From positions 17,484,001 through 17,548,000 of the forward strand of contig CATNEN010000038.1 of NCBI GenBank assembly GCA_950097015.1: DNA of 64,000 bases. Reading direction: 5' to 3'. Shown piece by piece: positions 570 to 52,178 of the stretch. The notes under the pieces were generated by a model, which did no database searches, was not told where the DNA came from, and saw only the letters and a program-made list of their open reading frames with translations. This stretch comes from Macrostomum hystrix. Taxonomy: Eukaryota; Animalia; Platyhelminthes. Position 1 is the stretch's first letter. The number at the start of each line of letters is the position of its first letter. Made by a program: the position numbers and the translations under genes.

Positions 570-2285
570 CTAATTAAAAATGCTCGCAGTACCGTACAAA
601 ATGGATCGACAAATTTCGCCAAACATTGAGTCCAATTTTTTCACCTGTGACTCTGTATAGACCTTATTGTGAATTCGATACCACAGGTGTAACAGGTAAT
701 TACGCCGGCGCCAGTCCCACCTGGCCTGCTGGCCTGTGTCATAGATCAGGGCCACCTGTTGCGGGGTCCAATTCGGTCTGGCCATGCTCTCCTGCTCCAC
801 GTGGCACAGCTGCGGGAGGGCTCGAGCTAGCCTGTCGGGCAGGTGTACGGAATGGATGGCCCAATCGGCAGTGTTAAATGTCTGATAGGCCAGGTGCCAA
901 ATTGCGACAAAGCTGGCATTTGGTGCGGAGAGCATCGCCGCGTTACAGAGGCCGCTGGAATGCTCCCGACCGATGGTGAAGTCGTAGAGTCGCAACGGGT
1001 CGAGGGGTTTGAGCACAACAACGTCCAGGTCGAGATAGACTCCGCCAAAGATGAGTAGGGCTTCTAGACGCATGACGTCTGACTGATGCTCCGGTGTGGC
1101 TATTGGGCGGGAGTACACTCGCTGTGGTAGCTGCCTGGTTGCCATGACAACGCGATCATCCCAGTTGTGCCCGGTAAGATTGCGTCGAAGCGCCTTCCAC
1201 CAATGGCCTCCGAGTGGACGGCCGGGCGGCTGCCACAGCAGCAGCAGCTGGGGCCGCATCACGTGCACGCAGCTGAGCAGGCTGACGAAGTGATGAAAGC
1301 GCAGGCGGGCTTCCATAAACGGCAGGATATAGTGGGCCGCGTTTGGCACCGGGTTGCCCTGAGAGCGGTTTAGAGTTACTCGGAGTCTTGGAGACATTGT
1401 GTCTAACAGCTGACACGTGTCTAACACCTGACACTAATGTCTAGCAAAAGACACTCAAGTCTAACAACAGACACTCATTTCTAACAGCTGACACTCGTGT
1501 CTAACAGCTGACAGTCAGTTCTAACAGCTGACACTCCAGTCTAACAGCTGGCACTTAAGTCTAACAGCTGAAACTAATATCTAACAGCTGACACTAATAT
1601 CTAACAGCTGACACTAATATCTAACAGCTGACACTAATATCTAATAGCTGACACTAATATCTAACAGCTGACACTCATATCTAACAGCTGACACTCATAT
1701 CTAACAGCTGACACTAATATCTAACAGCTGACACTAATATCTAACAGCTGACACTCATATCTAACAGCTGACACTCCAGTCTAACAGCTGACACTCCAGT
1801 CTAACAGCTGACACTCCAGTCTACAGCAAACAAACCTGAGATCCCTGTAGAAGCGTTCTCTGCACAGCCTCCACCGTCAACACTCGGCCAGACAAGGTTT
1901 TCAGGCGCCAGTCGACAGTAGAAAACCGCGGCACCTGGTGCCTCATCAGGCTGTGCAACAGCAGCCCAGAGCTGCCATGGATTCTCCAGGCGATCTTACT
2001 GACAATGGGAAAATGTTTTCTCAAAACAGCGCGATCCAATGGAACAAACGGTGGCGATCTGGACAGGATTCGATCCATGGCCTGCTTGTCGAATCGGTGA
2101 GGAGTTGACTGAACTGTGACATCGTCACGATGGCCATTAAAGTCAGCTTCATTGGATGCCAAATCAGTGTCCAACTCGGATGTTAAAGATTTTGTGAGCA
2201 ATCTGGGCAATACAATGATCGTGCTCATAGTTATGACAGTGGCAATTGCGAGTATTAGCTGGACAAGTCGTTTTAATTGAGTCAT
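570..2285 (-). CDS. GT32-family (DXD, alpha-1,4-GlcNAc/Gal transferase-like) type II membrane glycosyltransferase, 2 exons (2285-1836, 1358-570), ~412 aa
   Basis: Exon 1 has an N-terminal TM anchor (LVQLILAIATVITMSTIIVL). Phase-0 donor CAG|GTTTGT at 1835 joins acceptor CTCTCAG|GGC at 1359 in frame. Exon 2 has HQSDVMRLEALLIFGGVYLDLD, the SDxxR...GGxYxDxD signature of GT32. Confidence 0.85.
1402..1825. repeat. 20-bp minisatellite (ctaacagctgacactaatat) filling the glycosyltransferase intron
   Basis: About 21 tandem units seen directly. Confidence 0.95.
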
Positions 2286-2756
2286 GCTTTAGATTTCAAT
2301 CAAGGCTGCCAACAATTATTTTCTTTCCGCATGCAGATACTAAATTTAGAATGTAAATCCATTTTAAAAGCCGTTCCTTTGCGCTTAGACAAGAACTGTG
2401 AGAAAGCGTAATTGTGAGGCTAATTTCATTACCAGGAATGAAAATTAACGTACAATGCTTATCTTCTCATACCTCCGAATGCACGGCACCTGAATGTACA
2501 TTTCCAGTGTAAGCTATGATCACACAATGCAGGGCAGGGAGGGACGTACTCAAGCTCACATTCTTGAACTATACTATAGCTCTATCCTCTTCAAATTTCA
2601 GTCGGTGTTCATGACTTCACACCCAAAGTCAGATGTAGAGATGCGAACTACAATTGAAGTAAATTGTAGTTTTGACATGAAATACATTCATGTCAACATG
2701 AATGCAGATGTCAACTGCTATTGAACATGAATGTAGATCTACACACTAAAGCCCCA

Positions 2757-4500
2757 AGACAAAAAAATCTTGTGCAATGCAGAAGGACAAAACACACCTG
2801 ATAGCAAACAAAAACGAAAACTCATCTCGTCAGTCATAATTTCCCCGATTGCGAATATACGTGATTGCAATTCAACGAAAATTTGAATTCTCATTAAATA
2901 CAAAAATAATCTGTCTCAGCTTGAATACATTCCGAGACATCCGGTCTGTACACCAAGAGCCCGTTGGGGCAAAATTACACAAGTAACTTACGTTTGATAC
3001 AACTCAGCTTAATGCTACTTAGGTACATGTGAATACAATCCCCCCAGCAGCAGAGAACTAATTAAATGTCTCCCAAACAGCAGAGAACCGATGTTCCGTC
3101 AGCAGCAGAAAACTTATTTCTCCCCAGCAGCAGAGAACTAATTTCTCCCCAGCAGCAGAGAACTAATTTCCCCCCTGAAGCAGAGAACCAATTTCCCCCC
3201 AGCAGGAAAGAACCAATTTCCCCCCAGCAGCAGAGAACTAATTAAATGTCTCCCAAACAGCAGAGAACCGATGTTCCGTCAGCAGCAGAAAACTTATTTC
3301 TCCCCAGCAGCAGAGAACTAATTTCTCCCCAGCAGCAGAGAACTAATTTCCCCCCTGAAGCAGAGAACCAATTTCCCCCCCAGCAGGAAAGAACCAATTT
3401 CCCCCCAGCAGCAGAGAACTAATTTCTCCCCAGCAGCAGAGAACTAATTTCCCCCCTGAAGCAGAGAACTAATTAAATGTCTCCCAAACAGCAGAGAACT
3501 AATTAAATGTCTCCCAAACAGCAGAGAACTAATTAAATGTCTCCCAAACAGCAGAAAACCGATGTTCCGTCAGCAGCAGAGAACTAATTTCTCCCCAGCA
3601 GCAGAGAACTAATTTCTCCCCAGCAGCAGAGAACTAATTTCTCCCCAGCAGCAGAGAACTAATTTCTCCCCAGCAGCAGAGAACTAATTTCTCCCCAGCA
3701 GCAGAGAACTAATTTCTCCCCAGCAGCAGAGAACTAATTTCTCCCCAGCAGCAGAGAACTAATTTCTCCCCAGCAGCAGAGAACTAATTTCTCCCCAGCA
3801 GCAGAGAACTAATTTCTCCCCAGCAGCAGAGAACTAATTTCTCCCCAGCAGCAGAGAACTAATTTCTCCCAGCAGCAGAGAACTAATTTCTCCCCAGCAG
3901 CAGATAACTAATTCCCCCCCCCTGAAGCAGAGAACCAATTTCCCCCCCCCCCAGCAGGAAAGAACCAATTTCCCCCAAACAGCAGAGAACGGATGTTCCG
4001 TCAGCAGCAGAGAACTAATTTATCCCCAGCAGCAGAGAACTAATTTCCCCCCTGCAGCAGAGAACCAATGTCCCCTCATTAGCAAATAACCAATGTCCCC
4101 TAAATAGCAGAGAAGTAATGTCCCGTCAGCAGCAGAGAACCAATTTCCCCTCAGCAGCAGAGAACCAATGTCCCACCAGCAGCAGAGAACTAATTTCCCC
4201 CCAGCAGCAAGAACTAATTTCCCCCCTGTAGCAGAGAACTAATTCCCCCCCCCCAGCAGGAAAGAACCGATTTCCCCCAAACAGCAGAGAACGAATGTCC
4301 CATCAGTAGCAAATAACCAATGTCCCCCAAACAGCAGAGAACGAATGTCCCATCAGTAGCAAATAACCAATGTCCCCCAAACAGCAGAGAACGAATGTCC
4401 CATCAGTAGCAAATAACTAATGTCCCCCAAACAGCAGAGAACAAATTCCCCTCAGCACAGAGAAGCAATGTCCCCCCAGCAGAGAAATAATGTCCAACCA
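2757..4500 (-). mobile_element. Partial inverted copy of the Helitron-like element at 20453-23724 (3' subterminal ~280 bp plus 25-bp satellite), lacking the hairpin/CTAG end
   Basis: 2757-3040 is the diverged reverse complement of ~23400-23685 (e.g. aactcagcttaatgctact vs agtagcattaagctgagtt), followed by the same satellite. Confidence 0.75.
3040..4500. repeat. ~25-bp minisatellite (cagcagcagagaactaatttctccc)
   Basis: Tandem units, including a 180-bp higher-order duplication (3061 vs 3241). Confidence 0.95.
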
Positions 4501-4614
4501 GCAGCGGCTAGTCATTCCTGAATCTATGTCTATGGCAAAAGGCACCAAAAGTTTTAAAGCAAATGCAGTCTCACGCTGCAGGGCATCAAGTTAAACACAG
4601 CTTCGTTTGCAAAG

Positions 4615-7940: not shown

Positions 7941-8169
7941 CCAGATGCTATTCATTGATATAACTTAATTTAGCTATATTATTTACTTTCATGTATTCTT
8001 TTGTTAAAATCTTCATGCGGCTCTCGAAATATTGAGAAAATATTGCTAGCTGCTATGCTCGAAAATCGCTTAAGTAACAAAAATAATACGGCTGTTTGGT
8101 ACCCTAAAAACAATTTATTTTGTGCTTAACCTAATAACAATTGCAGAAATGCTAGAAAAACTTTTCATT

Positions 8170-8655
8170 AGTTATTTAGGAGACAGGCTGGATAGATATT
8201 TAGGAGACTGGCTGGGTAGATATTTAGGAGACTGGCTGGGTAGATATTTAGGAGACTGGCTGGGTAGATATTTAGGAGACAGGTTGGGTAGATATTTAGG
8301 AGACTGGCTGGGTAGATATTTAGGAGACAGATTCGGTAGACATTTAATAGACAGGTTGGGTAGACATTTAGGAGACAGGTTGGGTAGACATTTAGGAGAC
8401 AGGATGGGTAGATATTTAGGAGACAGGTTAGGTAGATATTTAGGAGACAGGCTGGGTAGATATTTAGGAGACAGGCTGGGTAGATATTTAGGAGACAGGC
8501 TGGGTAGATATTTAGGAGACAGGCTGGGTAGATATTTAGGAGACAGGCTGGGTAGATATTTAGGAGACAGATTTGGTAGACATTTAATAGACAGGTTGGG
8601 TAGATATTTAGGAGACAGGTTGGGTAGACATTTAGGAGACTGGCTAGATAGACGT
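8170..8655. repeat. 24-bp minisatellite (gggtagatatttaggagacaggct), left arm of an inverted pair
   Basis: About 20 units; reverse complement of the 9905-11400 array. Confidence 0.95.
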
Positions 8656-9044
8656 TTGTAAGTCTCAAACTTTCAGCGCCTGTGACACTATCAAAGTTCC
8701 AATTTTTGCAGTTTGAAAATGATTTGGAAATGAGAAAATGAGAAACAAAGAGCAAAGAAGTGTACGAGCTGCATTTTGGGTGTCCTCATACACGTATCAA
8801 TTTCCGGTATCAATCTGGACCTCGGACCAATAGAAAAGCGTGTCTGAGCAATCTGATTGGCTAGCCCAGACGTCAACTGTTTCAGCCTCAGCTAATAGCG
8901 CGCACACTTTTGTAAGTATTTCTATTCTTCCACTGCTGGGAATTATCTAGCTGTCGATCTGCAGAAACCATCGTCGAAAATTTCAACAATCAATAACTAT
9001 AGATTGCGATTAGAAAAGTCAACGATTTATATCGGTCTGGAGCC

Positions 9045-9718
9045 ATGACTGCTGCCACACACCAGCAGCTCCTTGGTGGAAGGCGAATCATCTCGCTGCT
9101 GCTGCTGCCATTTCTGGCTGCTGTCTGCTTGGCACCCGCTGCCGCTTCGAAGGTGACGACAGAATTTGGCGATATTGGCGACAAAATCGAAGGTTCGTGG
9201 TTGCTTTTCATTATAACTCATATCTGTTGATTTTTAATCATTTAAAAGAAACGCATATTTAACACCTTCTGTCATTCAAATCTTCACTAGTTTGTCACTT
9301 AATTTTTAGCTGTCTCTTTGTCTGTCACTCATTCTAGTCTGTCACCCTAATCTAGTCTGTCACTCAATCTAGCCTGTCAGTCTGTCCATCCGTCCATCTG
9401 TCACTCATTTCTTTGAGTCACACCAATGACTGTCACTCCGTCTGTCTGTCACTCCGTCTGTCTGTCACTCTATCTGTCTTTCACTCTGTTACCCGGCCGC
9501 GAACCCTTGTCCATGCAGAATGGCCAGTGCGTGACTCCGTCATCCAGTCGCCCTACCAGCTGCAGCCAGCTGCAGTCGGCTCCGCGGATGTCGCTGAGAA
9601 GCGCGGAATCGAGCTCACGGGCAACATCCACTGCTGCTTGCGCAACATCGCCGTCTGCTGCCGTCGGAGACGCCGAAGGCGCAGGCGGCAAACGGTCGAG
9701 AATCTGGAATTCCCTTGA
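9045..9718 (+). CDS. Secreted prepro-peptide, 115 aa, 2 exons (9045-9192, 9519-9718); predicted mature peptide GIELTGNIHCCLRNIAVCC (allatostatin-C/somatostatin-like C-x6-C core, CC-x6-CC framework)
   Basis: Signal peptide (IISLLLLPFLAAVCLAPAAAS). Phase-1 donor G|GTTCGT at 9193 and acceptor CATGCAG| at 9518 join in frame (GAA). KR dibasic site precedes the Cys peptide and Arg9 follows it. Confidence 0.75.
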
Positions 9719-9904
9719 AAACTGCTGAGTAGAATTTGCCGCCAGGCATGTCAAGCCGCGACAGTTTTTTAATCTAACAATTAAATCTGAACACTTTCTT
9801 CGATTCAGTGCTGAAAAGCACTCGGTTCAAAGCTCTTGTGCCTTGAGTTTAGCTTTTTGCTGCTTTTCATACCAACAACACCATATCAACGCAATATGTC
9901 TCAT

Positions 9905-11400
9905 TAATTTCTACCCAATTTATCTACTAAATGTCTACCCAACCTATCTCCTAAATATCTACCCAGCCAGTCTCCTAAATATCTACCGAATCTGTCTCCT
10001 AAATATCTACCCAATCGGTCTCCTAAATATCTACCCAATCTGTCTCCTAAATATCTACCCAATCGGTCTCGTAAATATCTACCCAATCTGTCTCCTAAAT
10101 ATCTACCCAATCGGTCTCCTAAATATCTACCTAATCTGTCTCTTTAATATCTACACAGTCTGTCTCCTAAATATCTACCCAGCCTGTCTCCTAAATATCT
10201 ACCCAATCTGTCTGCTAAATATCTACCCAATCGGTCTCCTAAATATCTACCCAATCTGTCTGCTAAATATCTACCCAATCGGTCTCCTAAATATCTACCC
10301 AATCGGTCTCCTAAATATCTACCTAATCTGTCTCTTTAATATCTACCCAGCCAGTCTCCTAAATATCTACCGAATCTGTCTCCTAAATATCTACCCAATC
10401 GGTCTCCTAAATATCTACCCAATCTGTCTGCTAAATATCTACCCAATCGGTCTCCTAAATATCTACCCAATCTGTCTGCTAAATATCTACCCAATCGGTC
10501 TCCTAAATATCTACCCAATCGGTCTCCTAAATATCTACCTAATCTGTCTCTTTAATATCTACCCAATCGGTCTCCTAAATATCTACCCAATCTGTCTCCT
10601 AAATATCTACCCAATCGGTCTCCTAAATATCTACCCAATCGGTCTCCTAAATATCTACCCAATCTGTCTCCTAAATATCTACCCAATCGGTCTCGTAAAT
10701 ATCTACCCAATCTGTCTCCTAAATATCTACCCAATCGGTCTCCTAAATATCTACCTAATCTGTCTCTTTAATATCTACACAGTCTGTCTCCTAAATATCT
10801 ACCCAGCCTGTCTCCTAAGTATCTACCCAATCTGTCTGCTAAATATCTACCCAATCGGTCTCCTAAATATCTACCCAATCTGTCTGCTAAATATCTACCC
10901 AATCGGTCTCCTAAATATCTACCCAATCGGTCTCCTAAATATCTACCTAATCTGTCTCTTTAATATCTACACAGTCTGTCTCCTAAATATCTACCCAATC
11001 TGTCTCCTAAATATCTACCCAATCGGTCTCGTAAATATCTACCCAATCTGTCTCCTAAATATCTACCCAATCGGTCTCCTAAATATCTACCTAATCTGTC
11101 TCTTTAATATCTACACAGTCTGTCTCCTAAATATCTACCCAGCCTGTCTCCTAAGTATCTACCCAATCTGTCTGCTAAATATCTACCCAATCGGTCTCCT
11201 AAATATCTACCCAATCTGTCTGCTAAATATCTACCCAATCGGTCTCCTAAATATCTACCTAATCTGTCTCTTTAATATCTACCTATTCTGTCTCCTAAAT
11301 ATCTACCCAATCTATCTCCTAAATATCTACCTAATCTGTCTCCTAAATATCTACCCAATCAGTATCCTAAATATCTACTCAACATGTACCTCAAATGGCT
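9905..11400. repeat. 24-bp minisatellite (ctaaatatctacccaatcggtctc), right arm of an inverted pair
   Basis: About 60 units with higher-order blocks. Confidence 0.95.
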
Positions 11401-12117
11401 ACTCGATCTGTAACTCAAGCAGCTACTCACAATGGCACCCAAATGTCTTGTCAGCCAGAATCAGAATCTCTCCATGCTTGTTATTCCATACTCACCAAGT
11501 GCTCAATAATTCACAAAATTGAGTCACGATCGACCCAAATGTCACACACCAAACGTACTCGCAGTCACACGTTTTTTAACACCTGAGGGAACTCAACTAG
11601 TTGGTACCTATAGCAGGAAATGTTAAGTAGTTTGAAACCGAATTGTGTTAGTCTGTCTGCACCAGTAGCTGTTCATCAGGGACAGGAAAGTGTCAAATTT
11701 AAGGAAAATGAAATTTCCGCCAAAATCAGTAAGCTGATAGCCTGCTAGTCTGTGTCAGTATCCTACGCTGATTATAGTCAGTATAGTAATAGGTGAGCAC
11801 ATTTTTTGTTAAGATTTCCTGCATGACGGAATCAGGAAAAAATGTCTGGAATTATGGCCTAGTTAATTTCGTATTGAGAATAGGTGAAACGAACAAGCCA
11901 TTAGTTACTATAAAATATTCATAGAAAAATTTTACTCTACAAATCTGAAGATAAGGGGCAGGATCTTTTGTCTCTTTAGACACCAGAAAACTGACTGCTC
12001 TCTTGAGAACGGGCTGCAAAGTAGTTTGCTAAAAGCTTTGAAATTATTTACCGTGATTTGTAACTCTCTTTCAGGACTTTTTTTCGACTAATAAAGGTAA
12101 TCACAATGAATCACAAT

Positions 12118-16634: not shown

Positions 16635-19790
<3,156 letters not shown>

Positions 19791-22844: not shown

Positions 22845-23400
22845 TGCTGCTGGTGGGATTAGTTCTCTGCTGCAGGGGGGGATTAGTTCTCTGCTGCAGG
22901 GGGGGAATTAGTTCTCTGCTGCTGGGGGGGAATTAGGGGGGGAATTAGTTCTCTGCTGCTGAGGGGAATTAGGGGGGAATTAGTTCTCTGCTGCTGAGGG
23001 GAATTAGGGGGGAATTAGTTCTCTGCTGCTGAGGGGAATTAGGGGAGAATTAGTTCTCTGCTGCTAGGGGGGAATTAGGGGGGAATTACTGCTGGGGGGA
23101 ATTAGCTCTCTGCTGCTGGGGAGAATTAGTTCTCTGCTGCTGGGGGGAATTAGGGGGAATTAGTTCTCTGCTGCTGGGGGGAATTAGTTCTCTGCTGCTG
23201 TGGGGAATTAGTTCTCTACTGCTGGGGGGAATTAGTTCTCTGCTGCTGGGGGGAATTAGGGGGGAATTAGTTCTCTGCTGCAGGGGGGGAAATTAGTTCT
23301 CTGCTGCTGGGGGGAATTAGGGGGGAATTAGTTCTTTGCTGCAGGGGGGAAATTAGTTCTCTGCTGCTGAGGGGGGGACATTCGTTTTTTATTGCTGAGG
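22845..23400. repeat. ~24-25-bp minisatellite (gggggaattagttctctgctgct) inside the Helitron
   Basis: Reverse complement of the 3040-4500 satellite family. Confidence 0.93.
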
Positions 23401-24008
23401 GGATAGTATTCACATGTACCTCAGTAGCATTAAGCTGAGTTGTATCAAACGGAAGTTACTTGGGTTATTTTTGCCCCAATGGGGCTCTTGGTGTACTGAC
23501 CGAATGTCTCAGAATGTATTCAAGCTCAGCCTGACTATTTTTGTATTTAGTGAGAATTCTAATTCTCGTTGACTCGCAATAACGTATATTCGCAATCAGG
23601 GAAATTATGACTGACGAAATGAGTTTACGTTTTTGTTTGCTTTCAGGTGTTTTATCCTTCTGCATTGCACAAGATTTTTTTGTCTGACCAGTAGTGCTCC
23701 CCGAAGGGGGGCAAAACTTGCTAGTCTATATACTAATTTTATTAATTAACTTTTTGCACTGCTAAATGGGTGTCGGAAATTCCGTGTCTAATTTTGTTAT
23801 TTGCATTTTAAAAGGCAAAAAAGCGACTAAAAAATTATAATTTTGAGATTCTGTGCCATTCTTTCTTACTCCAGATGGGATTTTGTACTGTTGGACAAAT
23901 ATAGAAGATTAGTACACCCAATATCGAAATTACTCTTTTACTGTAGAGCCCAAAACCAAAGACTAAAAATAATGATACTTAGAATTGTTCCCATACTCTT
24001 TTAATTGC

Positions 24009-25849
24009 TTACTGCAGCAAGTCCTCTAGGCAGGACATGACAGCGGTGGCTCTACTAGCCAGCATCTTGGCCCACAATGTCACCTGACCCTTCACCACAA
24101 AGTCATCGATTGACTGATTGTCACCGGCTTCTTCACAGCGAAGACCAGCCAGCCAGGCGTCGCTAGCTGGCCTACAGCCGGTTGAGTTCGGCACAATTAA
24201 TCGCTCCGACATGCCCGGCACAGATGCCAAGCTACTTCCCGACAGCCTAGAAAGCTCTTCTGTCACCATCCAGACGTCCCAGCCGGCTTCAGTGACCGCG
24301 GTGACGAGATCGGATCGTACAGAGTCGCCAAAGTAGGCAATAGTCCTGCCAGTCGGTTTCTCAGATTCGCTCAGTCTAGGATGAAGAAATCTTCGCTCAA
24401 ACTCGGCGGCGCTGCCCCCAATGTAGGCCTTGCCTCGACCGAATGGCAGTCGTTCGAAATGGCGCGTGGAAGCGGAATTGAAAAAGAAATTCGGCTTGTT
24501 AGCCTCCAATAAGCAACAGTCGAACAGGTCGGGCCAATCAGCGCCCAGGATGTACTCAAGGTGTCTGGCTCCGAATTGAGCCTCGGATGAGGATAAAAGA
24601 AACACATAGACTCCACTACGGCGAAGTTGGCTCAATAGGTCTCGAACTCCGGAAGTCACTGGGCAGAGATAATTGCCAGGATTGGCAAGAACGGCTTTGA
24701 AATAAGAGCCGCCGTCTGAGTAGACGTGAATCAAAGCGGAGTAGCAATCCCGCCATAGGGCGCTGCAGTCGGCTAAAGGCTCTGAACGGCTCTCCTCGGC
24801 CATGTCCACCTGCGGATTCGAGTTCAACAATGGGCCATTATGTAAACTGAGGGGAAAGGAATAAAAATTACACCTAACCGATTTGGGCTATATCTACCGC
24901 ATCTATCTCGGAGCGCATCCGAAGGCTGTGTACATCTTGTACAGTCCATGGACTGGGAGGCTAATACCCATTTTACTACGGGGTGAACTAGGAAATTAAG
25001 TGTCTTGATCTAGCGGGCGGAGAATGTGAATGGAGAGGAGGCAATTCTGACCATTTCGCTGAATCCTGAGCACACACGCACACAGAGACTGTACGCAGGC
25101 ACAGCTCACACAGGTGTTTACACCTGCCCTGATTTTCTCATCGTCAGGCAGTGTACACTTTCACTGTGCCTTGGAGATTGGCCACCAAGCTTTCTCTCTG
25201 CGGCTGTGCCCCAAATAAATGTGGCCTCGCCGCGGAATCGAGCTCAGGGACCTCTGCCACCCACCCACTGGAATTACTTAAAGTAGGATTTATGGTATGA
25301 TAATGCAAAAACTAGCGGCAGATATTCAAAACGACAAGTTTTTAGATGTACTTTCTAATTGTAAGGCATTGTTATATAAAAATTTTTATCTAAAAGCAAA
25401 GCAGAAATGTATTGAATGCGCACCAGCTTAGCAAAGATCAGACTGCCAGGCAGGTCATAATGGGTGTCCTGAAATCGGTAGCGACCCTCGCGCTCGTGCC
25501 GATAGCCGCTAGTCAGAGCATCGTCGGCGAATGCCGGCCGACCGTCGGGCGGGTAGGCAACCCTGGCGTCCAACTGTTTTGTGCCGTGGCAGACCCGCAG
25601 AGCTGAGCCTGTCGGCGACATCAAAAGCAAATTGCCGGCTAATTTATCTAGCATTGCGGCGCGACTCATAATGCCACACTCCATTGGCGACCAATCTAAG
25701 CGACGCAATCTTTCAGGATAGCCCCGATGATTGATTAGATAATCAGCTAGCTGGCCATAGACTAGGTTGACAAGGTTGCGCAACTGATAACGACCCAGGG
25801 TTAGATCGATATCGAATCCAACCGCGCTGTACTTTAATAGTCGATTCAT
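24009..25849 (-). CDS. NT5DC1: 5'-nucleotidase domain-containing (HAD, NT5DC1-like) protein, 2 exons (25849-25424, 24809-24009), ~408 aa
   Basis: HAD motif I VGFDIDLTLGRY, motif II FLLSSS, motif III ANKPNFF, motif IV YFGDSVRSD. Phase-0 junction CTG|GTGCGC ... CCGCAG|GTG. Confidence 0.85.
25030..25265 (-). mobile_element. tRNA-derived SINE family A, internally deleted, in the NT5DC1 intron (preceded by a family-B fragment at ~24940-25010)
   Basis: Similarity to the other family A copies in the window. Confidence 0.8.
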
Positions 25850-26118
25850 TTGTTATTATCGAGGACTATGCAGCTGAAAAGATCAGTGAGCAATGTTTTG
25901 TATGAAACTGAAATGCGCTTCATCAAGCTTTCTAGATTTATGCTTACAATATTCTAAATGCCGTCTAGCGCCGTTTCTATAGCTGAGATACTCGCAGCCA
26001 ATCAGAGACGAGTTCCGTAGATATATATATATAAAGAAAATAAAGCAACGAATATTTCTTCGTATAAACAACGACAAACTGAGCTGTTGCAGTTGACAAA
26101 TTTAAAAATTATTCAGCA

Positions 26119-32100: not shown

Positions 32101-33789
32101 CGACCTAAATTCGACAATTACAACAGGTACTGTCCCTGGGTCTATGTCGCGATGAAACCGACCAGCTGCATCACGAAGCCTGGATTGGTCTTGTCTATCC
32201 AAAGAAGTCCGACTGGTACGCGCCAAGCACCTGTAATGAACTAGCTGAACAGGTGCTCAGAGCGGCTAGGCGTGGCGCAGCTGGTCTCGTATTCGATTTG
32301 CGCAAAGCTCACGGACACCTGCGAGATCAGGTGAATAGAATACCTGTTTACCAATGAAGAGTGAAGAAGCAAGAATAGAGCAGTTGAAAATAAACTATTG
32401 AAACGATTCTTTACAGCTCATGGAAATATCTACCGCTGAGAAAGAGCGCTTCAACATCACAGTGACAATAGTGGACTCGAGGGAGGCGAAAAATCTAGAC
32501 ATGCTGGAGTCACTAGACCTGGCCAAGCATCACGCCGAGGTCGTCATAAGACCCGCGAAGGCTGCCGCCAGAGTCAGCGGTCGTACAGGCGGAGTCAGCG
32601 GCGGACATCAAAGAACTAGGGCCACTTTCTACGCGGAGATCGCCGCATTCTTATTGTTCTTTCTGGTGTTCTGCGTCACAGGGATTGTGCTGCTGTTAAA
32701 GGTGACAAAGACACTAATTGAAGGGACGAGTGCATAATTAAGCATAGTTTAAAGTACTCTGAGCACATACGCACGCACTGGTTAGTAAGCCTGCTCAGAC
32801 GATTGTTGGGCGATTATAGGCGTCCATATTGTATCTACAAACGCAACAGTTGTTCTCTGGAATGCGTCAAATAATTTTACTAATAACTGCGGGAGGGCTG
32901 CGCGCAATGGCACATCAATTGGAGACACGAGACTCGCAGCCAGCGAGGAGGCAATTCTGCCCATTCCGCTGACTCCTGAGCACACACAGGTGTGTACATC
33001 TACCCTGACTTTCTCAATGTCAGGCAGTGTACACTCTCAGTGTTCCTTTGAGGTTGGCCCTCAAAGGAGTAAATTTCACGACAAGCCCCCAAGTCATTTC
33101 TCCGCGGCTGCGCCTCAAATGAATGTGGCCTTGCCGCGGAATCGAACTCAGGGACGTTGGCGCAAGAGGCAATCGCGTTAACCGCTCTGCCACTGACCCT
33201 CTAGCTAAATATTTCGCATTCTCAACGCATTCTAATCGCGCAGTTTTACTCAAAGCGGGACACGACAACGGCCTCAACAACTAGCACATCGCTTCTATCA
33301 ACGACAAACAAGCTGACACGATCCATAATGGACCAGTTGGAGACTAGGCCATACAAAGCGCCATCTAATCGATCCAGCGTGGACAGGTGCGACTCGAACA
33401 GTCGAGAGGCTGCGAGTTGCCCGGTCTGTCAAATCGAGTTTCATTACAACGAACCGCTTCGTGTGCTACCGTGTCGGCACCAGCTGCACCTGAGCTGTGC
33501 TCAGAACTGGCTAGCTGATTATCAAACCTGTCCTCTGTGCCAGCACAACATCCTGGGTGAGCCACCGACAAAACCTGACGACAATAATACAACGGAAACC
33601 ATGACAACTACCGCCACCGCGAGGACAACTGCGCTAGCCGTCAATGCGACTGGCCACTGTGACGACTCATCGTCAAGCTACAGTGCGCTATGCGACGATG
33701 TCTCTAGCACCGTCACAAACAGCGGAGCAGTGTCCAAGCCTGTAGATCTGATTGGTCGCAGGCCACCATCAAAGGAGACGACATTGTGA
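26119..33789 (+). CDS. ZNRF3: ZNRF3/RNF43/PLR-1-like PA-TM-RING E3 ubiquitin ligase, 4 exons (26119-26352, 32127-32330, 32417-32701, 33244-33789), ~422 aa
   Basis: Signal peptide. PA domain LSLGLC...AWIGLV...C..LAEQVLRAARRGAAGLVFD resembles ZNRF3 HPLGLC...GWVGVV...C...AKRAVQRGATAVIFD. TM helix. Juxta-RING KLTRSIMDQLETRPY resembles RLAVQALEKMETRKF. RING-H2 CPVC...LRVLPCRHQLHLSC...W...TCPLC. All junctions are phase-0 GT-AG. Confidence 0.85.
26364..26757. repeat. (CTGA/CTGC)n tetranucleotide microsatellite at the start of ZNRF3-like intron 1
   Basis: Seen directly. Confidence 0.97.
27450..28830. repeat. 32-33-bp pyrimidine-rich minisatellite (gccccttatcattctcctcttcccctgttcct)
   Basis: About 40 units. 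Confidence 0.95.
30592..30914. mobile_element. hAT (Charlie-type) MITE with an internal 16-bp tandem repeat
   Basis: Perfect TIR CAGGGGTCGGCAAACT / AGTTTGCCGACCCCTG; 8-bp TSD GCATAGAA at 30584-30591 and 30915-30922. Confidence 0.92.
31598..32060. repeat. 34-bp minisatellite (gtgcaatagtctatggacagatttctgaacacgt)
   Basis: About 13 units just upstream of the exon 2 acceptor. Confidence 0.95.
32878..33200 (-). mobile_element. tRNA-derived SINE family A in ZNRF3-like intron 3
   Basis: Minus strand: A box TGGCAGAGCGG, B box GAGTTCGATTCC, tta tail. Confidence 0.88.
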
Positions 33790-42514: not shown

Positions 42515-43873
42515 TTAGTTGGGACGCGTCCTCCCAGTAGAACCATGCCGTGACACACTGTCACCTTCGTCAAAGTCAACACTCCAGTAGCCGGAGCTTC
42601 TAGCAGTTCCAGGGGAAGAATTTTTCAGAGCTTCAGCCAACGCCAGAGCCTGTCTGGACAGCGGGGTAAGCGATGATCGAGCTGGTTGCGACACCCTGGA
42701 GTCTGGCTGATTGACACCGGCATTGCTTTGATAACAATCTGAGGGATCAGATCTAGCTGACGACGCCATGCCGACTATCTCCAATAGAGACGCGTCGAAA
42801 TCTTGCAAGCATTCCAATCTGGCGCTGTCAATGCCGCCACCCGACGATGCTGCTGGCATGACGACAGCCGAGCCGACCGCAGCTTCGGCTTGGTCTAGAT
42901 CGGCTGCGGCGGTTGTTAGACACCGCTTAGACAGCGCAGCGGTACAGTCCATGGTATCACAGCCAATGTTGGAGTGACGTCGTTTCTGATCCAACCTACT
43001 CGACGCATCATCCATCTCGAGGCTCGAGTTGTCCTCGCTGGCTGTCGCCTGCAGAAGCGCCTTGGCTAGCTGCTGATAGGCGCTGGCTAAAGGCTGAGGC
43101 ACAGTGTACCGCCTACCAGGCATAGTGGTGTCAAGACTGGCGAATTCACCTGGCTGACCGTGATCTTCAATGTTAAATACGTCGACAACTTCTAGACAGT
43201 CTATGTCTAAACTATCAACGTCTGATTGTTCGCTATCGTTGGAGCTGTCCTCTTCAGTGTAGCAAGATGGTAATTGTGGCTGCTGCTGCTGCTGCTGCTG
43301 GTGATCCAATGGCGTTGTGGGCTCGGCGTGATGGCTACCAATTGTGGGATTAGATAACGGACACTCTGAGCTAGATACGATACTAGCTGGAGCTTCTAGC
43401 TGATCTGTCATAGCTTGGAAACCGGTTGAGGCGAATAGAGAGGCCGCTTCTGCCGCGGCCGACTCAGCATCCGCCTCCAGGCTGGCTTCGTCGCCGTCTT
43501 CGCTAATGACTTCAAACACTGGCGTCTGCAGAGTTGACGCCCGCTCTTCAATAAGCTTCTTGACCACCTCCTCCTCCTCGTCCTCGTCTTCGTTATTTTC
43601 TACTCGCTTTTCTTGTTCAGCTGCTTGTTCTGATTCGGAACCAACAATACTTCTAGTAACTGCTTGGCCTCTATTATTAGTGGCTGACGACGCGCAGGTG
43701 TCCTTTCTAGGAAAGGCTTCATAATTTTCCGGATAATCATAGAACAGGCTCGGATACAGGCTATCCGCGTGGGTGATCACTTCGTCTTGGCTGGGTATTA
43801 GCTGGCCGAAATCGAAGCTAAGCGGCTCGTCCAACTGCAGCAGATCGGAAGGCGGTGAAATATGCGGCAGGGC

Positions 43874-43909
<36 letters not shown>

Positions 43910-44236
43910 ATAATAATAATAATGATTCTGCTGTTGAGCATAACCAATAGCTTGCGGCTCAAACAGCTGTTGCTGCTGCAGTTCTAGCTGCTGCTGCTGC
44001 TGCTGCTGCTGTTGGTCCTGGGAAAATTCCATACCGTCAAAGTAGCGAGCTAGCGCTAGTCTAACATAGTCGCGCATTTCTCCGGTTCGGCAGCGCGAAT
44101 TTTTGCCGCTACGCACCGGACAGTGTCGGACCCAGCGACGACTGCGGCGCCAGGTGACCTGCGTCAGGGCTGCGTCAGGGCAGGGGGCGGGGTAATATCT
44201 GCAGGGTTTCTCACAATCACATACAGTGGTATTCAT
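42515..44236 (-). CDS. Uncharacterised Q-rich, acidic, largely disordered protein (~570 aa ORF; true start or upstream exons uncertain)
   Basis: 1.7-kb stop-free non-satellite ORF with coding-like GC content and polyQ/polyE tracts; no recognisable domain; possible acceptor at 44199. Confidence 0.65.
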
Positions 44237-44284
44237 TTTATTCAATTATTTAAACTCACGACTGATTTTGTACACAATCTAGTG

Positions 44285-48114: not shown

Positions 48115-50081
48115 CCCTAAGACTGCGGATGGCCCTATATCTATGGCCCGCGGCTCAAATAGCTACTGAGTGGCGCTAACTTACTGAACAGTTTGTAGTT
48201 TGCGGATATGGCCTGCAAAGCAGGTCACACATTTCGTATTTTTCAGGATGACTTGTTTTAGACCACTTTGGCAATAGTAAGTACGAGTATAAAATAGCAA
48301 TAGAGATCATGTAGTGAAGAACGGTAAACTAGACAAATCAGTAATAGCAGTTGGTAAGCAGTGTTTAACAAACACAGAAAACAGTAATCAATACATTCTA
48401 AGCTTAATTTTTTTTAGTTTTAGGGTTCCGAATAAGCGATTCGAGAGCAGCAGTAAGCAATAGAGCTGAAGGCGCATATTGACATGCACAACCTACGAGT
48501 ATAAGGTAGTATGACACAATATTTTTCATTTTTATAACCAATAACTGTAATGGCGAGACGAGATGGTAGAGCAATGAAATGAACAGGTACAGTTACTCAT
48601 TCAAGATTGATTTTAAAAACTGTTTTCGAGTTAGTTTTCTTGTTAATCATTACGATTTTCAATTACTCGTATTTAGAGCTAACGCTGCCAAAAAAGTAAG
48701 TTCTGTTATAAAAGTTATAAAACTTGACGGCCAGGATGTTGCCGTTCCGCATAGCAGGCACAGCCAATTCTTTTAGTGCATCCGGGACACCGCGGTTTGC
48801 ACGCACGGTGCACGTAAGCAGGGTCCAACACTGCAACAAGTAGGCTGCAAGGCGAACTGATCCGAACCAGCTGTCGCAGAACACATGGTATCCAACGTCG
48901 AGAACATACCTACATGACTCAACCAACACCCTTTGACTCAGTGAGAGTCCATCGCAATCTAGATCTTGTCCAAACTTTTCGTTCTCCGCCCTGCTCGAAT
49001 GCACAAGAAAATTGCTAACGTAGCCTGTTCTCGCCTCGCACAGGCAGTAAATCTTTATTCCATACCGCGCCTTCTTGGCAGGCATATACTGGCGAAACAA
49101 TACGCGCCCTCTAAAGAGCACAAGCTCCTCGTATGCACTGAGCTCCTTTCCAGGCATGTAAACACGCCGACAAATTTCAGAAACGATGCTGATGAAGGGT
49201 CTCACCTTTGCCAGGGGGTCCGACGCATCAAAGTTGTTGCAATCGTAGAAACGAAGCAAACTGCTGATTTGTTGATAACAGTCTCTGGGCAAGCAAACAG
49301 GTTGTTGAAAGAGTGGTGTTGCATAACTCTTTTTTAACCAGTAGTGGGTCACCTCCGGCTTCTTGATGACTCCCATGCATAGTGACATGGCGATAAACTT
49401 TGTCATGTCGTTAGCGGTGACGTCTTTCCATGTCGAGAATCGCCACGGCAAGGAATTCAGATCATCTTGCAGTTCCTGGAATTTTCGCCATGCACGCGCA
49501 TTCGTCCATTCGCACAGGCTTTGCAGCAACTCAGCAGTGACGAACATTCGACTAAAGGCCACTGGATCGTCGTACGCATTTTCGGGTAGCACCAAGCCGG
49601 GGGCAGGACCTGGCGTGCCCGAAAACGCGGGATTTGGGTCCGGCTTCTGGTCATGGCCTGGCTCGCAGTGAACCCACCCATCAGTTTCAGCAGCTTCTGG
49701 TAGAAGCTGCGCTTCGTCTTGAACGAACTCAGTTTCGTGGTGATCGTCATCATCATCTGTAAACATATCACTCTCTTCCCAAGAAGTCTTACTGCCTGTG
49801 TCAGGATCGAATTGTGCAGCTGCGGCAGCCATGACTATTAAAAAGTCCAAAAAAATTTTTCTGTCAATAACCTTCATTTTCTCTCGGCAATGAAAAAACT
49901 GTACAAACGTACATGCAACGTACATTACTTTTAAAAAATATTATACCATAGAATATTTGGTTTGAGCTGCTACCGCAAACTACGGGTCTGGCTTTTAAAT
50001 TTAAAAGTTGTCTATGGCCTGTAGTGCAGGCCATCCAGCAAACTACGTTTAAACCGTGCAGTAGACAACGCAGTCTAAGAG
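48115..50081 (-). mobile_element. Defective piggyBac transposon
   Basis: TTAA TSD at 48111-48114 and 50082-50085. TIR CCCTAAGACTGCG vs CTCTTAGACTGCG (11/13). Subterminal inverted repeats (gtagtttgc...tggcctgca). Confidence 0.88.
48663..49832 (-). pseudogene. piggyBac transposase (DDE_Tnp_1_7), C-terminally deleted, first catalytic Asp replaced
   Basis: DPLAKVRPFI, ELSAYEELVLFRGR (D replaced by Y relative to SIDESM..FKGR), RQYMPAKKARYGIKIY, FCDSWFGS, CTVRANR; no GGVD third-Asp motif or Cys-rich tail. Confidence 0.85.
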
Positions 50082-50592
50082 TTAAAGGGCGAGTTCATTG
50101 AGTAGCTATGAATGAATGTACGAGTAAATAATTTGGCTAAGTTAGAAAGCCAATTATATGTATCAAACAAATTTTTCACCTGTGAGCAACCTAGCATTAA
50201 CACGGCACCTCTATTGTAAACGTCATGAATCGTATGGGGTAGCGTTGCTAGTCTTATATACTATTTTTATTTTTTTCAGATCTCCTAAAATATTAAAACA
50301 ATTGCAACAAAATTCAGAACACGGGCTAAAATTTCCCGCTCTATTCGATAAAACTACTTCCAGAATCACAAAACATGGGCATCGTAGAGATATTCAACGA
50401 TTCTCGAAGATCTCGACGATGCTGACTCGGACGGCTTTGAAAGTTAGTTCATCGTAAAAGGTGGAAACATTTAATCCATAAAAAATTGCTGTGTTTGTGA
50501 ATATGGTGGACTTTCACGAAAATTGGTCTTTCGGTTTGTGAGCCATTGCAAAGTAGGCAGTGAGTATTTGAAAAATACCCATGGGAAAAATA

Positions 50593-52178
50593 TCGGTCCT
50601 ATCGGTCCTAATTTCAATATCGGTCCTATCACGCCCTCCGAGGTTCGCAACACGCTTAAAAGCATGAAGCCTGATGCTGCGCCTGGTGTCGATGGGGTGC
50701 CTCCCAGGGTCCTCAGACTTCCAGAGCTTACTTCGGTGATCACCACGCTCCTCAACAAATATTCCGTTCTTGGAGGCGACGCCGGCGCCGAGGCTCCCTG
50801 CATCTGGCGCACCTCTAAGATTGTCTCAATTCCAAAGAAGGGCCTGTCCACCTGCCTGGACAACCAGAGGGGCATCGCTCTGGAGTGTACCCTGCCAAAA
50901 CTCCTCAATTCGATCCTGAGGAACAGACTGCTGCCGATCATCAACCCGCTTCTGCTGGGCGCTCAGAGTGGATTCCGCCCTGGCAGATCTACTGTTGAGC
51001 AAATAGCCACCGTCCGCTGCATCATCGAGTCCTGCATAACGCGGCAAAAGTCGGTTACCATCGTGTTCGTCGACTTTCGCAAAGCCTTTGACTCGGTCAG
51101 TCGAGCTGCCATCGAGTGGCTCCTCTCTTACTACGGTGTTCCACCAACTCTAGTGACGGCAATCATGGACCTCTACTCCGACACCCGCGCTTTTGTCGAG
51201 ATGAGAAAGGATGTCACCGAGACCTTCACTACCAGCTCCGGCGTTCTCCAAGGAGATACCCTAGCCCCTTTCATATTCATCATTATCATTGATTATGTCC
51301 TTCGCCGTTCCCTCTCTGAAGACGAAGCCTATGTTGTTGTCCGCCGCCGCAGCTCGCGTCACCCTGAGACCACGCTGGCTGCCCTCGCTTTTGCCGACGA
51401 CATCGCCCTGGTGTGCAGAGACCCTTCGGCCGCTCAGTCAGCGCTCAACAGAATCTGCGAGGAAGGTGCCAGAGTCGGCCTCGAAGTGAACGCTCGCAAG
51501 ACCGAGGTGCTCCACGTCGGCATCAGCGACCCGGCTCCTCTTACCCTTGCAAACGGTGACGAAATCTCTGTCTGCTCGGATTTTCGGTACCTCGGCTCGC
51601 TGGTGGTCTCTCCGGAGGACATCGTCGCCGATCGTCGTGCGCAAGCCTGGAGAGCTGCTCGACAGCTGAGCCCCATCTTCTGCTCGCCCGTGCCTGACCA
51701 ACTCAAAATCCGGATTTTTCGTGCTGCCGTAGAGCCGATATTCCTTTATGGCTTGGAGGCTCTCCCAATCACGGAATCTCGCAAGCGGGCTCTCGACGCC
51801 ACTTTCAGAGCCTTCCTGCGTTTCGCTCTGGACGTACGCTACCCCGAAAGGCTGTCAAACCGTGCGCTCGCTGCTCGCTCCTGCGTCCCGCCGGTGAGCT
51901 CCATACTCAGGGCGCGGAGACAGCGGCTTCTCGGCCACGTGTTACGCAGCTACGGACGCGGAGAAACCAACCCCCTTGCGATCGTTGTGCTAAATCCGCC
52001 AAGCGATCCTTTTCGACGCGGACATGCGCGCACTGAAACTCTCTTAAAGACCTTCACTAATGACCTACAGGCCATCAACCTCACTCCGCTTGAGGCTACT
52101 TCCTGCCCCTCTGAGCTTTTTCGCGAGCGTGTGAGCGCTAAGGGTCTCTGACTCTTCAGCGTCTTAATAATAATAATA
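50593..52178 (+). mobile_element. 5'-truncated non-LTR retrotransposon (RTE-like) with an uninterrupted RT ORF to 52151
   Basis: RT motifs IPKKG, QSGFRPGRST, FVDFRKAFDSV, GVLQGDTLAP, FADD, FRYLGS. Very short 3'UTR with (TAA)n tail. 12-bp TSD ATGGGAAAAATA at 50581-50592 and 52179-52190. Confidence 0.92.

What the first reader, a model, noticed from the sequence alone, without database searches (positions are those of the whole stretch)
9045..9718. Hidden two-exon prepro-peptide releasing a CC-x6-CC peptide: an allatostatin-C-like core with doubled cysteines
Seen: splicing 9192 to 9519 gives signal peptide, propeptide, KR, GIELTGNIHCCLRNIAVCC (9605-9661), Arg9 and a short tail. The ORF track splits this into unrelated ORFs. 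Knowledge: AstC/somatostatin-type peptides have a C-x6-C ring, and lophotrochozoan AstC as I recall reads C-L-V-N-[ILV]-x-x-C. The inner CLRNIAVC fits this. Vicinal CC...CC is also the framework of T-superfamily conotoxins. Inference: a neuropeptide paralogue that gained a second disulfide, possibly a signalling mimic, toxin or seminal-fluid peptide, or a new peptide family.
Basis: partly seen in the sequence, partly recalled or inferred. Interest (0 to 1): 0.85.

Follow-up and report, generated by a model that had tools for sequence, protein, structure and literature searches.

The report
Macrostomum double-cysteine-pair signalling peptide family
This is a real, spliced flatworm gene, with two relatives in Macrostomum lignano, whose product is predicted to be secreted and cut to a 19-residue peptide with two cysteine pairs that likely acts as a signalling peptide; it appears undescribed, and its proposed kinship to allatostatin C is possible but weakened by the relatives.

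Summary
Contigs in 4 of 4 public runs (one study) join 9192 to 9519 across a GT..AG intron, with no mismatch. This gives a 115-residue precursor: hydrophobic leader, pro-region, KR, a 19-mer with CC-x6-CC, Arg9 and a short tail. The window is from a Macrostomum-type flatworm.

The only relatives found are two unnamed M. lignano proteins. One is a likely orthologue by shared neighbourhood. Both keep KR, CC-x6-CC and the basic run. The mature peptide is conserved (14 of 19) while the pro-region is not (2 of 30), the pattern of a signalling peptide and the reverse of conotoxins.

Both M. lignano loops read V-N-G-I-[AP]-G, so the AstC-like L-x-N-I is likely derived in this species. The intron is phase 1, not the phase 0 of AstC genes. 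Loop size and the C-terminal register still fit AstC. The M. lignano transcripts are not tail- or gonad-enriched, which argues against seminal fluid.

Verdict: an undescribed, so far Macrostomum-only, two-disulfide peptide family, likely neuroendocrine. Processing, disulfides, cells and receptor are untested.

The parts
8945..9044 (+). 5' untranslated region (minimum extent)
   Evidence: earliest contig start 8945; no ATG before 9045
9045..9192 (+). coding exon 1: predicted signal peptide and start of the pro-region
9045..9146 (+). predicted signal peptide, residues 1-34 (cut site judged by eye, SignalP not run)
   Evidence: best 11-residue hydropathy window 2.77 at residues 18-28, the only hydrophobic stretch; preceded by RR
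9193..9518 (+). 326-nt phase-1 intron, GT..AG
   Evidence: skipped by one contig in 4 of 4 runs; phase
9519..9831 (+). exon 2: rest of pro-region, peptide, tail, stop at 9716-9718 and 3' untranslated region
9599..9604 (+). KR dibasic site, predicted convertase cut
   Evidence: invariant in the alignment of all 5 sequences
9605..9661 (+). predicted mature 19-residue peptide with CC-x6-CC
   Evidence: 14 of 19 identical to Mlig010892 and 9 of 19 to Mlig027086
9662..9688 (+). nine Arg, predicted C-terminal cleavage and trimming site
   Evidence: basic runs kept in both M. lignano genes
9689..9715 (+). 9-residue C-terminal tail
   Evidence: weakly conserved (3 of 9)
9780..9785 (+). ATTAAA, likely polyadenylation signal
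   Evidence: contig ends at 9801, 9806, 9808, 9831

Best explanation
The gene is spliced and conserved in Macrostomum, and its 115-residue product is predicted to be a secreted prohormone that would be cut at KR and at the Arg run to release one 19-residue, non-amidated peptide with likely two disulfide bonds, which likely signals to the animal's own cells through an unidentified receptor. Mechanism, step by step. Transcription and splicing are shown by contigs. Entry into the secretory pathway is inferred from the hydrophobic leader. Convertase cuts at KR and in the basic run, then carboxypeptidase trimming back to the last Cys, are inferred from standard prohormone processing; no Gly follows, so no amide is expected. 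Closure of two disulfides, crossed or nested around the six-residue loop, is inferred and the pairing is unknown. Action on a peptide GPCR from neurons or endocrine cells is inferred. The family has at least two old paralogues and no relative outside Macrostomum that current searches can see, so I treat it as a lineage-restricted family of unresolved origin.
For: Junction in 4 of 4 runs. Two M. lignano relatives among 1.84 billion representatives, E 1.9e-8 and 2.5e-5; the profile search found the same 2 of 354 candidates. Invariant KR, G, E-L, G, CC, I, CC and basic run. Against the likely orthologue the mature peptide is 14 of 19 identical, the pro-region 2 of 30 (Fisher p 1.5e-6; non-Cys residues alone 10 of 15, p 5e-5), the leader 8 of 31. 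Orthology: Mlig010892g2 (PAA50230) and the best hit of the neighbouring 5'-nucleotidase gene (PAA50232) are two accession numbers apart and both list an 82,613-nt contig. One peptide copy near the C-terminus between basic sites is the usual neuropeptide layout. M. lignano transcripts are 'Non-Specific' by body region, with no germline, stem-cell or mating annotation, in 4 of 4 rows found. ESM Atlas look-alikes of the M. lignano protein include four neuropeptide or hormone precursor families among 7 rows shown, at 0.76-0.82, a lead only.
Against: No cell-type data, peptidomics or receptor. 'Non-Specific' does not show neuronal expression, and I did not see how low-count transcripts were classed. 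The six loop residues differ at 4 of 6 places between likely orthologues, which is loose for a neuropeptide, though not significant against the 62% background of the neighbouring gene (p 0.15) or against the N-terminal nine residues (p 0.09). Only three distinct peptides from two species were available.
Confidence: 0.5

Rival explanations
1. It is the Macrostomum branch of allatostatin C, strongly diverged. The residues just outside the six-residue ring became cysteines and added a second disulfide, and the peptide would act as an inhibitory signal on an AstC/somatostatin-type receptor.
For: The ring has six residues, as in all protostome AstC; it starts with an aliphatic residue and holds an Asn (PMC9048919 passages). 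The register KR, short N-terminal arm, C-x6-C, one residue, basic run matches the mollusc and annelid AstC entries seen. Ile at ring position 4 is invariant and AstC has I, L or V there. The window's ring shares 3 of 6 residues with the Platynereis AstC ring. AstC is not among the polyclad peptides listed in the texts read, so the slot may be open.
Against: Both M. lignano rings have Asn at position 2 and Gly at 3. AstC has Asn at 3 in 7 of 8 and 11 of 12 peptide-bearing entries seen. Position 2 is hydrophobic in all those entries but Arg or Asn here. The residue after the ring is aromatic in 8 of 8 and 12 of 12 but Cys here. The two M. lignano paralogues share 5 of 6 ring residues, so parsimony makes the AstC-like ring the derived state. 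The intron is phase 1, against phase 0 in all AstC genes examined. No AstC protein appeared in any search.
Confidence: 0.25
2. It is an exocrine effector (defensive, feeding, mucus or antimicrobial peptide) that reached the CC-CC framework independently, as cone-snail T-superfamily peptides did.
For: CC-CC is framework V of T-superfamily conotoxins. The loop varies between likely orthologues (2 of 6). Head glands would also be classed 'Non-Specific'. A retained Arg run would make it strongly cationic.
Against: Conotoxin precursors keep leader and pro-region and vary the mature part (PMC9048919). Here the mature part is the conserved one. Only two gene types are seen in M. lignano, and no second copy at 80% likeness in the four runs, so there is no sign of a toxin-like expansion. 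No Pfam family matched at E up to 10 for the three M. lignano proteins scanned.
Confidence: 0.14
3. It derives from a CCAP-type cyclic neuropeptide, with one residue added to the ring and extra cysteines.
For: The M. lignano rings end in N-G-x-x-G-C, as nemertean CCAPs do.
Against: CCAP rings have five residues, an aromatic residue before the first Cys and after N-G, and sit in several copies per precursor in the entries seen. None of these holds here, and the window's own peptide lacks both Gly residues.
Confidence: 0.06
4. It is a seminal-fluid or other reproductive peptide passed to the mate.
For: Secreted, lineage-restricted, and the loop differs between species; tail-region genes are enriched for signal peptides (PMC7336406).
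Against: The M. lignano transcripts are not tail-, testis- or ovary-region enriched and not responsive to mating group, in 4 of 4 rows found; Mlig031427 had no row. One other reproductive-expression supplement held none of the three ids.
Confidence: 0.05

Closest known systems
Lophotrochozoan allatostatin C (AstC; somatostatin-related superfamily)
   Same: Single peptide near the C-terminus after a dibasic site; six-residue ring; aliphatic first and fourth ring residue; one residue then a basic run after the ring; no amide expected.
   Different: Four cysteines, not two; Asn not fixed at ring position 3; polar or basic residue at position 2; Cys in place of the aromatic residue after the ring; longer Gly-Ile/Val-Glu-Leu arm; a tail after the basic run; phase-1 intron.
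T-superfamily conotoxins (framework V, CC-CC), including tau-CnVA (SST3 antagonist) and conorphin-T (kappa-opioid agonist)
   Same: Two pairs of adjacent cysteines in a short peptide released from a prepro-precursor. Some members act on receptors of the somatostatin/opioid group.
   Different: No sequence match; conserved mature region with divergent leader and pro-region, the reverse of conotoxins; few gene copies; a different phylum.
CCAP (crustacean cardioactive peptide) of spiralians
   Same: N-G-x-x-G-C at the end of the ring in the two M. lignano peptides.
   Different: Ring of six, not five; no aromatic residues; one copy; four cysteines.
M. lignano hypothetical proteins Mlig010892/Mlig031427 and Mlig027086
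   Same: Same layout and cysteine frame; Mlig010892 is the likely orthologue (shared neighbour, 14 of 19 in the mature peptide).
   Different: Ring interior differs at 4 of 6 residues; these records carry no functional name.

Membership tests
Allatostatin C | single peptide copy near the precursor C-terminus, after a dibasic site | tested here: met
   feature from PMC7536072 passage
Allatostatin C | six residues between the ring cysteines | tested here: met
   feature from PMC9048919. Assumes the inner two cysteines pair, which is untested
Allatostatin C | aliphatic first ring residue (mollusc and annelid type) | tested here: met
   L, V, V in the three peptides; feature
Allatostatin C | common Asn in the ring (position 3 in 7 of 8 and 11 of 12 entries seen) | tested here: inconclusive
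   Asn at 3 in the window's peptide, at 2 in both M. lignano peptides
Allatostatin C | hydrophobic ring position 2 and aromatic residue after the ring (my reading of 8 and 12 entries) | tested here: not met
   Arg or Asn at position 2, Cys after the ring
Allatostatin C | phase-0 intron in the pro-region | tested here: not met
   the one coding intron is phase 1; feature. M. lignano introns not seen
Allatostatin C | two cysteines forming one disulfide | tested here: not met
   four cysteines in all three peptides
Allatostatin C | activates an AstC/somatostatin-type GPCR | not testable with these tools
   needs a receptor assay; no genome was held to look for the receptor
Somatostatin-related peptides (SSRP) | WK motif in the ring | tested here: not met
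   no Trp or Lys in any of the three rings; feature
T-superfamily conotoxins | CC-CC cysteine framework | tested here: met
T-superfamily conotoxins | conserved leader and pro-region with a hypervariable mature part (described for consomatins, taken as the conotoxin pattern) | tested here: not met
   leader 8 of 31, pro-region 2 of 30, mature 14 of 19; feature
T-superfamily conotoxins | match to conotoxin precursor profiles | tested here: not met
   no conotoxin family in Pfam scans of the two exon frames or three M. lignano proteins at E up to 10
T-superfamily conotoxins | Cys I-III, II-IV pairing and venom-gland expression | not testable with these tools
   fold model too poor (mean pLDDT 54); no tissue data
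CCAP | five-residue ring with aromatic residues, several copies in spiralian precursors | tested here: not met
   six-residue ring, no aromatic residue, one copy
CCWamide, CLCCY and prohormone-3-related peptides | longer mature domain with six or more cysteines | tested here: not met
   four cysteines in 19 residues, against the entries seen

The most novel reading that the evidence does not exclude
This is the missing flatworm allatostatin C lineage, rebuilt as a bicyclic peptide. The two residues flanking the ancestral ring became cysteines, giving an endogenous neuropeptide on the CC-CC frame that cone snails use in toxins aimed at somatostatin and opioid receptors. The loop then diverged quickly between Macrostomum species together with its receptor.
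Probability: 0.2. Interest if true: 0.7.

Novelty: new variant of a known kind. Interest (0 to 1): 0.42.

Why it matters
Macrostomum is a tractable model with RNA interference and transgenesis (PMC5730564 and PMC4490696 search listings). Its neuropeptides are barely catalogued: two large reference sets searched for 'Macrostomum' gave 2 and 4 occurrences, and those shown are NPY, vasopressin-like and allatostatin A. A conserved, expressed precursor with a CC-x6-CC peptide gives a ready ligand for receptor matching. If it is AstC-derived, it fills an apparent gap in flatworms and shows a somatostatin-family peptide gaining a second disulfide. If not, it is one more lineage-restricted flatworm peptide family, with an unusual cysteine frame. 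Either way the question can be tested directly with a synthetic 19-mer.

Tried and rejected
No whole genome is held, so paralogues, a canonical AstC or CCAP gene and receptors could not be sought in this species.

No RNA holder is listed by label among the four runs.

A word-seeded search with exon 2 gave 5 candidates and 0 hits. The full HMMER scan then found the two M. lignano proteins, which shows the limits of the word search. The profile search found nothing beyond them.

Pfam: one weak hit of exon 2 to NICE-1 (E 0.0075, 17.5 bits, below its cut-off of 27), rejected as a Cys/Arg composition match; none for the three M. lignano proteins. PDB sequences: one chance hit at E 0.81. ESM Atlas: no usable hit for exon 2; hits under 0.9 for the M. 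lignano protein.

AlphaFold model: mean pLDDT 54, pTM 0.23, so no fold search was run and no disulfide pairing is claimed.

Laying the four runs on exon 2 at 80% likeness showed one contig per run and no paralogue; contigs show presence, not absence.

Earlier findings of the scan: nothing in three look-ups.

Literature: a search for the three Mlig ids, one accession and the loop motif returned 2 conotoxin papers; the one I opened was a chance match in an M-superfamily sequence. The motif was absent from the supplements of PMC8557429 and PMC9048919, and one chance match in PMC6425005, two of whose files were cut when stored. Supplements of PMC5946080 and PMC10396302 could not be read; the latter lists polyclad neuropeptides and may bear on whether flatworms have AstC or this family. 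Figure 1C of PMC13551398, which charts AstC by lineage, could not be seen.

No quantitative profile of AstC peptides was scored against the family; that comparison is by eye on the entries shown.

Full report
1. The observation. Exon 1 (9045-9192) and exon 2 (9519-9718) give a 115-residue open frame. The intron is 326 nt, GT..AG, phase 1. KR lies at 9599-9604, the 19-mer with CC-x6-CC at 9605-9661, then nine Arg and a 9-residue tail. The only hydrophobic stretch is at residues 14-35, best window 2.77; the leader's cut after residue 34 is my judgement by eye, as SignalP was not available. The full pattern occurs once in the window and in 0 of 100 shuffled windows.

2. It is transcribed and spliced. 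Four public runs from one study hold about half of the region's words. In 4 of 4, a single contig of 526-561 nt covers both exons with 0 mismatches and skips exactly the intron. Intron and flanks are covered only by short, mismatched microsatellite and minisatellite pieces. The runs are not labelled RNA; exon-only cover makes that the likely reading. They are one study and may be the window's own strain, so this is one line of evidence. Contig ends at 9801-9831 follow an ATTAAA at 9780.

3. The organism and the relatives. The neighbouring 5'-nucleotidase exon has one hit, a Macrostomum lignano protein at 62% identity, so the window is likely another Macrostomum-type flatworm. HMMER over 1.84 billion representatives found 2 proteins at E up to 0.001, both M. 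lignano hypothetical proteins: Mlig010892/Mlig031427 and Mlig027086. A profile of the three peptides found the same 2 among 354 candidates. Mlig010892g2 and the nucleotidase hit are accessions PAA50230 and PAA50232, both with an 82,613-nt contig. This points to the same neighbourhood and so to orthology; I could not read the M. lignano DNA itself. All keep leader, KR, the G-x-E-L-x-G arm, CC-x6-CC and the basic run.

4. What conservation says. Against the likely orthologue, the mature peptide is 14 of 19 identical, the pro-region 2 of 30 and the leader 8 of 31 (rough pairwise alignments with boundaries I chose). Mature against pro-region gives Fisher p 1.5e-6. The peptide is therefore the selected part. 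Cone-snail consomatins show the reverse: conserved leader and pro-region, variable mature part (PMC9048919 passages). There is one oddity. The likely orthologues share 8 of 9 N-terminal residues but 2 of 6 ring residues, while the two M. lignano paralogues share 4 of 9 and 5 of 6. With so few residues this is not significant (p 0.09 and 0.15), but parsimony makes V-N-G-I-[AP]-G the older ring and this species' L-R-N-I-A-V the derived one.

5. The AstC question. For AstC descent: six-residue ring, aliphatic positions 1 and 4, an Asn in the ring, and the register ring, one residue, basic run. Against: the Asn is at position 2 in both M. lignano genes; position 2 is hydrophobic and the post-ring residue aromatic in all those AstC entries but not here; and AstC genes share a phase-0 intron in the pro-region (PMC7536072; PMC9048919) where this gene has phase 1. 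The M. lignano rings resemble the end of the CCAP ring about as much as the window's ring resembles AstC, which shows how easily six residues between cysteines match something. Membership of AstC fails on tested features; working like an AstC, as an inhibitory GPCR ligand, remains open.

6. Where it is made. In the M. lignano annotation table of PMC7336406, 4 of 4 rows found for the two genes are 'Non-Specific' by body region and blank for germline, stem-cell and mating response; Mlig031427 had no row. The classes are non-specific, testis, ovary and tail region, and prostate genes fall in the tail class. This argues against seminal fluid and tail adhesive glands. It does not separate neurons from head glands, and I did not see the rule for low-count transcripts.

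7. Mechanism. Shown: transcription, splicing, the frame, conservation of the cleavage sites and cysteines. Inferred from standard prohormone processing: secretion, cuts at KR and the Arg run, trimming to a free C-terminal Cys, two disulfides. Inferred more weakly: release from neurons or endocrine cells and action on a peptide GPCR. I put an orphan Macrostomum signalling family at 0.5, diverged AstC at 0.25, exocrine effector at 0.14, CCAP-derived at 0.06 and seminal peptide at 0.05. The first, second and fourth share the signalling role, about 0.8 in all. One aside keeps the novel reading alive: CC-CC conotoxins act on SST3 and the kappa-opioid receptor (PMC8859281 passages), relatives of AstC receptors, so this frame can engage that receptor group.

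8. Novelty. I found no description of the family. Ten paper searches gave listings with none on it; one search covered the gene ids and loop motif directly. The library lacks most subscription papers, and two relevant supplements were unreadable. What I saw of each paper: passages of PMC8557429 (plus one supplement part and three supplement searches), PMC7536072, PMC9048919 (plus one supplement search), PMC13311285, PMC8896804, PMC7336406 (plus one supplement search), PMC6471084, PMC6114109, PMC10396302 and PMC8859281; part 1 of 4 and passages of PMC13551398; supplement searches only for PMC10786194 and PMC6425005; nothing of PMC5946080 beyond its listing. That flatworms have many lineage-restricted peptide precursors is recalled knowledge.

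9. Verdict. A real, expressed, conserved gene for an undescribed two-disulfide peptide, so far only in Macrostomum. It is a new variant of a known kind. The headline claim of an AstC core with doubled cysteines is possible but not supported as membership. Interest 0.42; 0.7 if the AstC reading proves true.

Noticed in passing
window 8169-8657 and 9883-11448: The gene sits between two arrays of the same 24-nt minisatellite in opposite orientation (about 86% alike), and the left array matches nowhere else in the window. The 80-100 nt flanks printed showed no shared outer inverted end. It may be chance or a foldback-type remnant; the shared neighbourhood with M. lignano suggests the gene did not move.
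   Followed up: partly
window 3039-4505 and 22845-23403: A second pair of related minisatellite arrays in opposite orientation, about 18 kb apart, judged from the consensus units.
   Followed up: no
protein P0004/P0007 (M. lignano Mlig027086): The paralogue has a 43-residue tail with six more cysteines, including two further CC pairs. It could be a second peptide or a gene-model error.
   Followed up: no
window 570-2288 (-): Glycosyltransferase with a DXD sugar-binding region (PF04488 in the 573-1433 frame).
   Followed up: partly
window 18549-18989 (-): Exon of a Ras-family GTPase (PF00071); Ral-like by recalled sequence features.
   Followed up: partly
window 24009-25852 (-): 5'-nucleotidase domain gene (PF05761), 62% identical to an M. 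lignano protein; used here for organism and neighbourhood.
   Followed up: yes
window 32402-33789 (+): RING-H2 finger exon downstream of a frame with a likely membrane span; likely a membrane E3 ligase.
   Followed up: partly
window 48663-49940 (-) and 50475-52151 (+): A DDE transposase frame (PF13843) and a reverse transcriptase frame (PF00078), side by side.
   Followed up: partly
window 42515-44245 (-): A 576-residue Gln- and acid-rich open frame with no Pfam match.
   Followed up: partly
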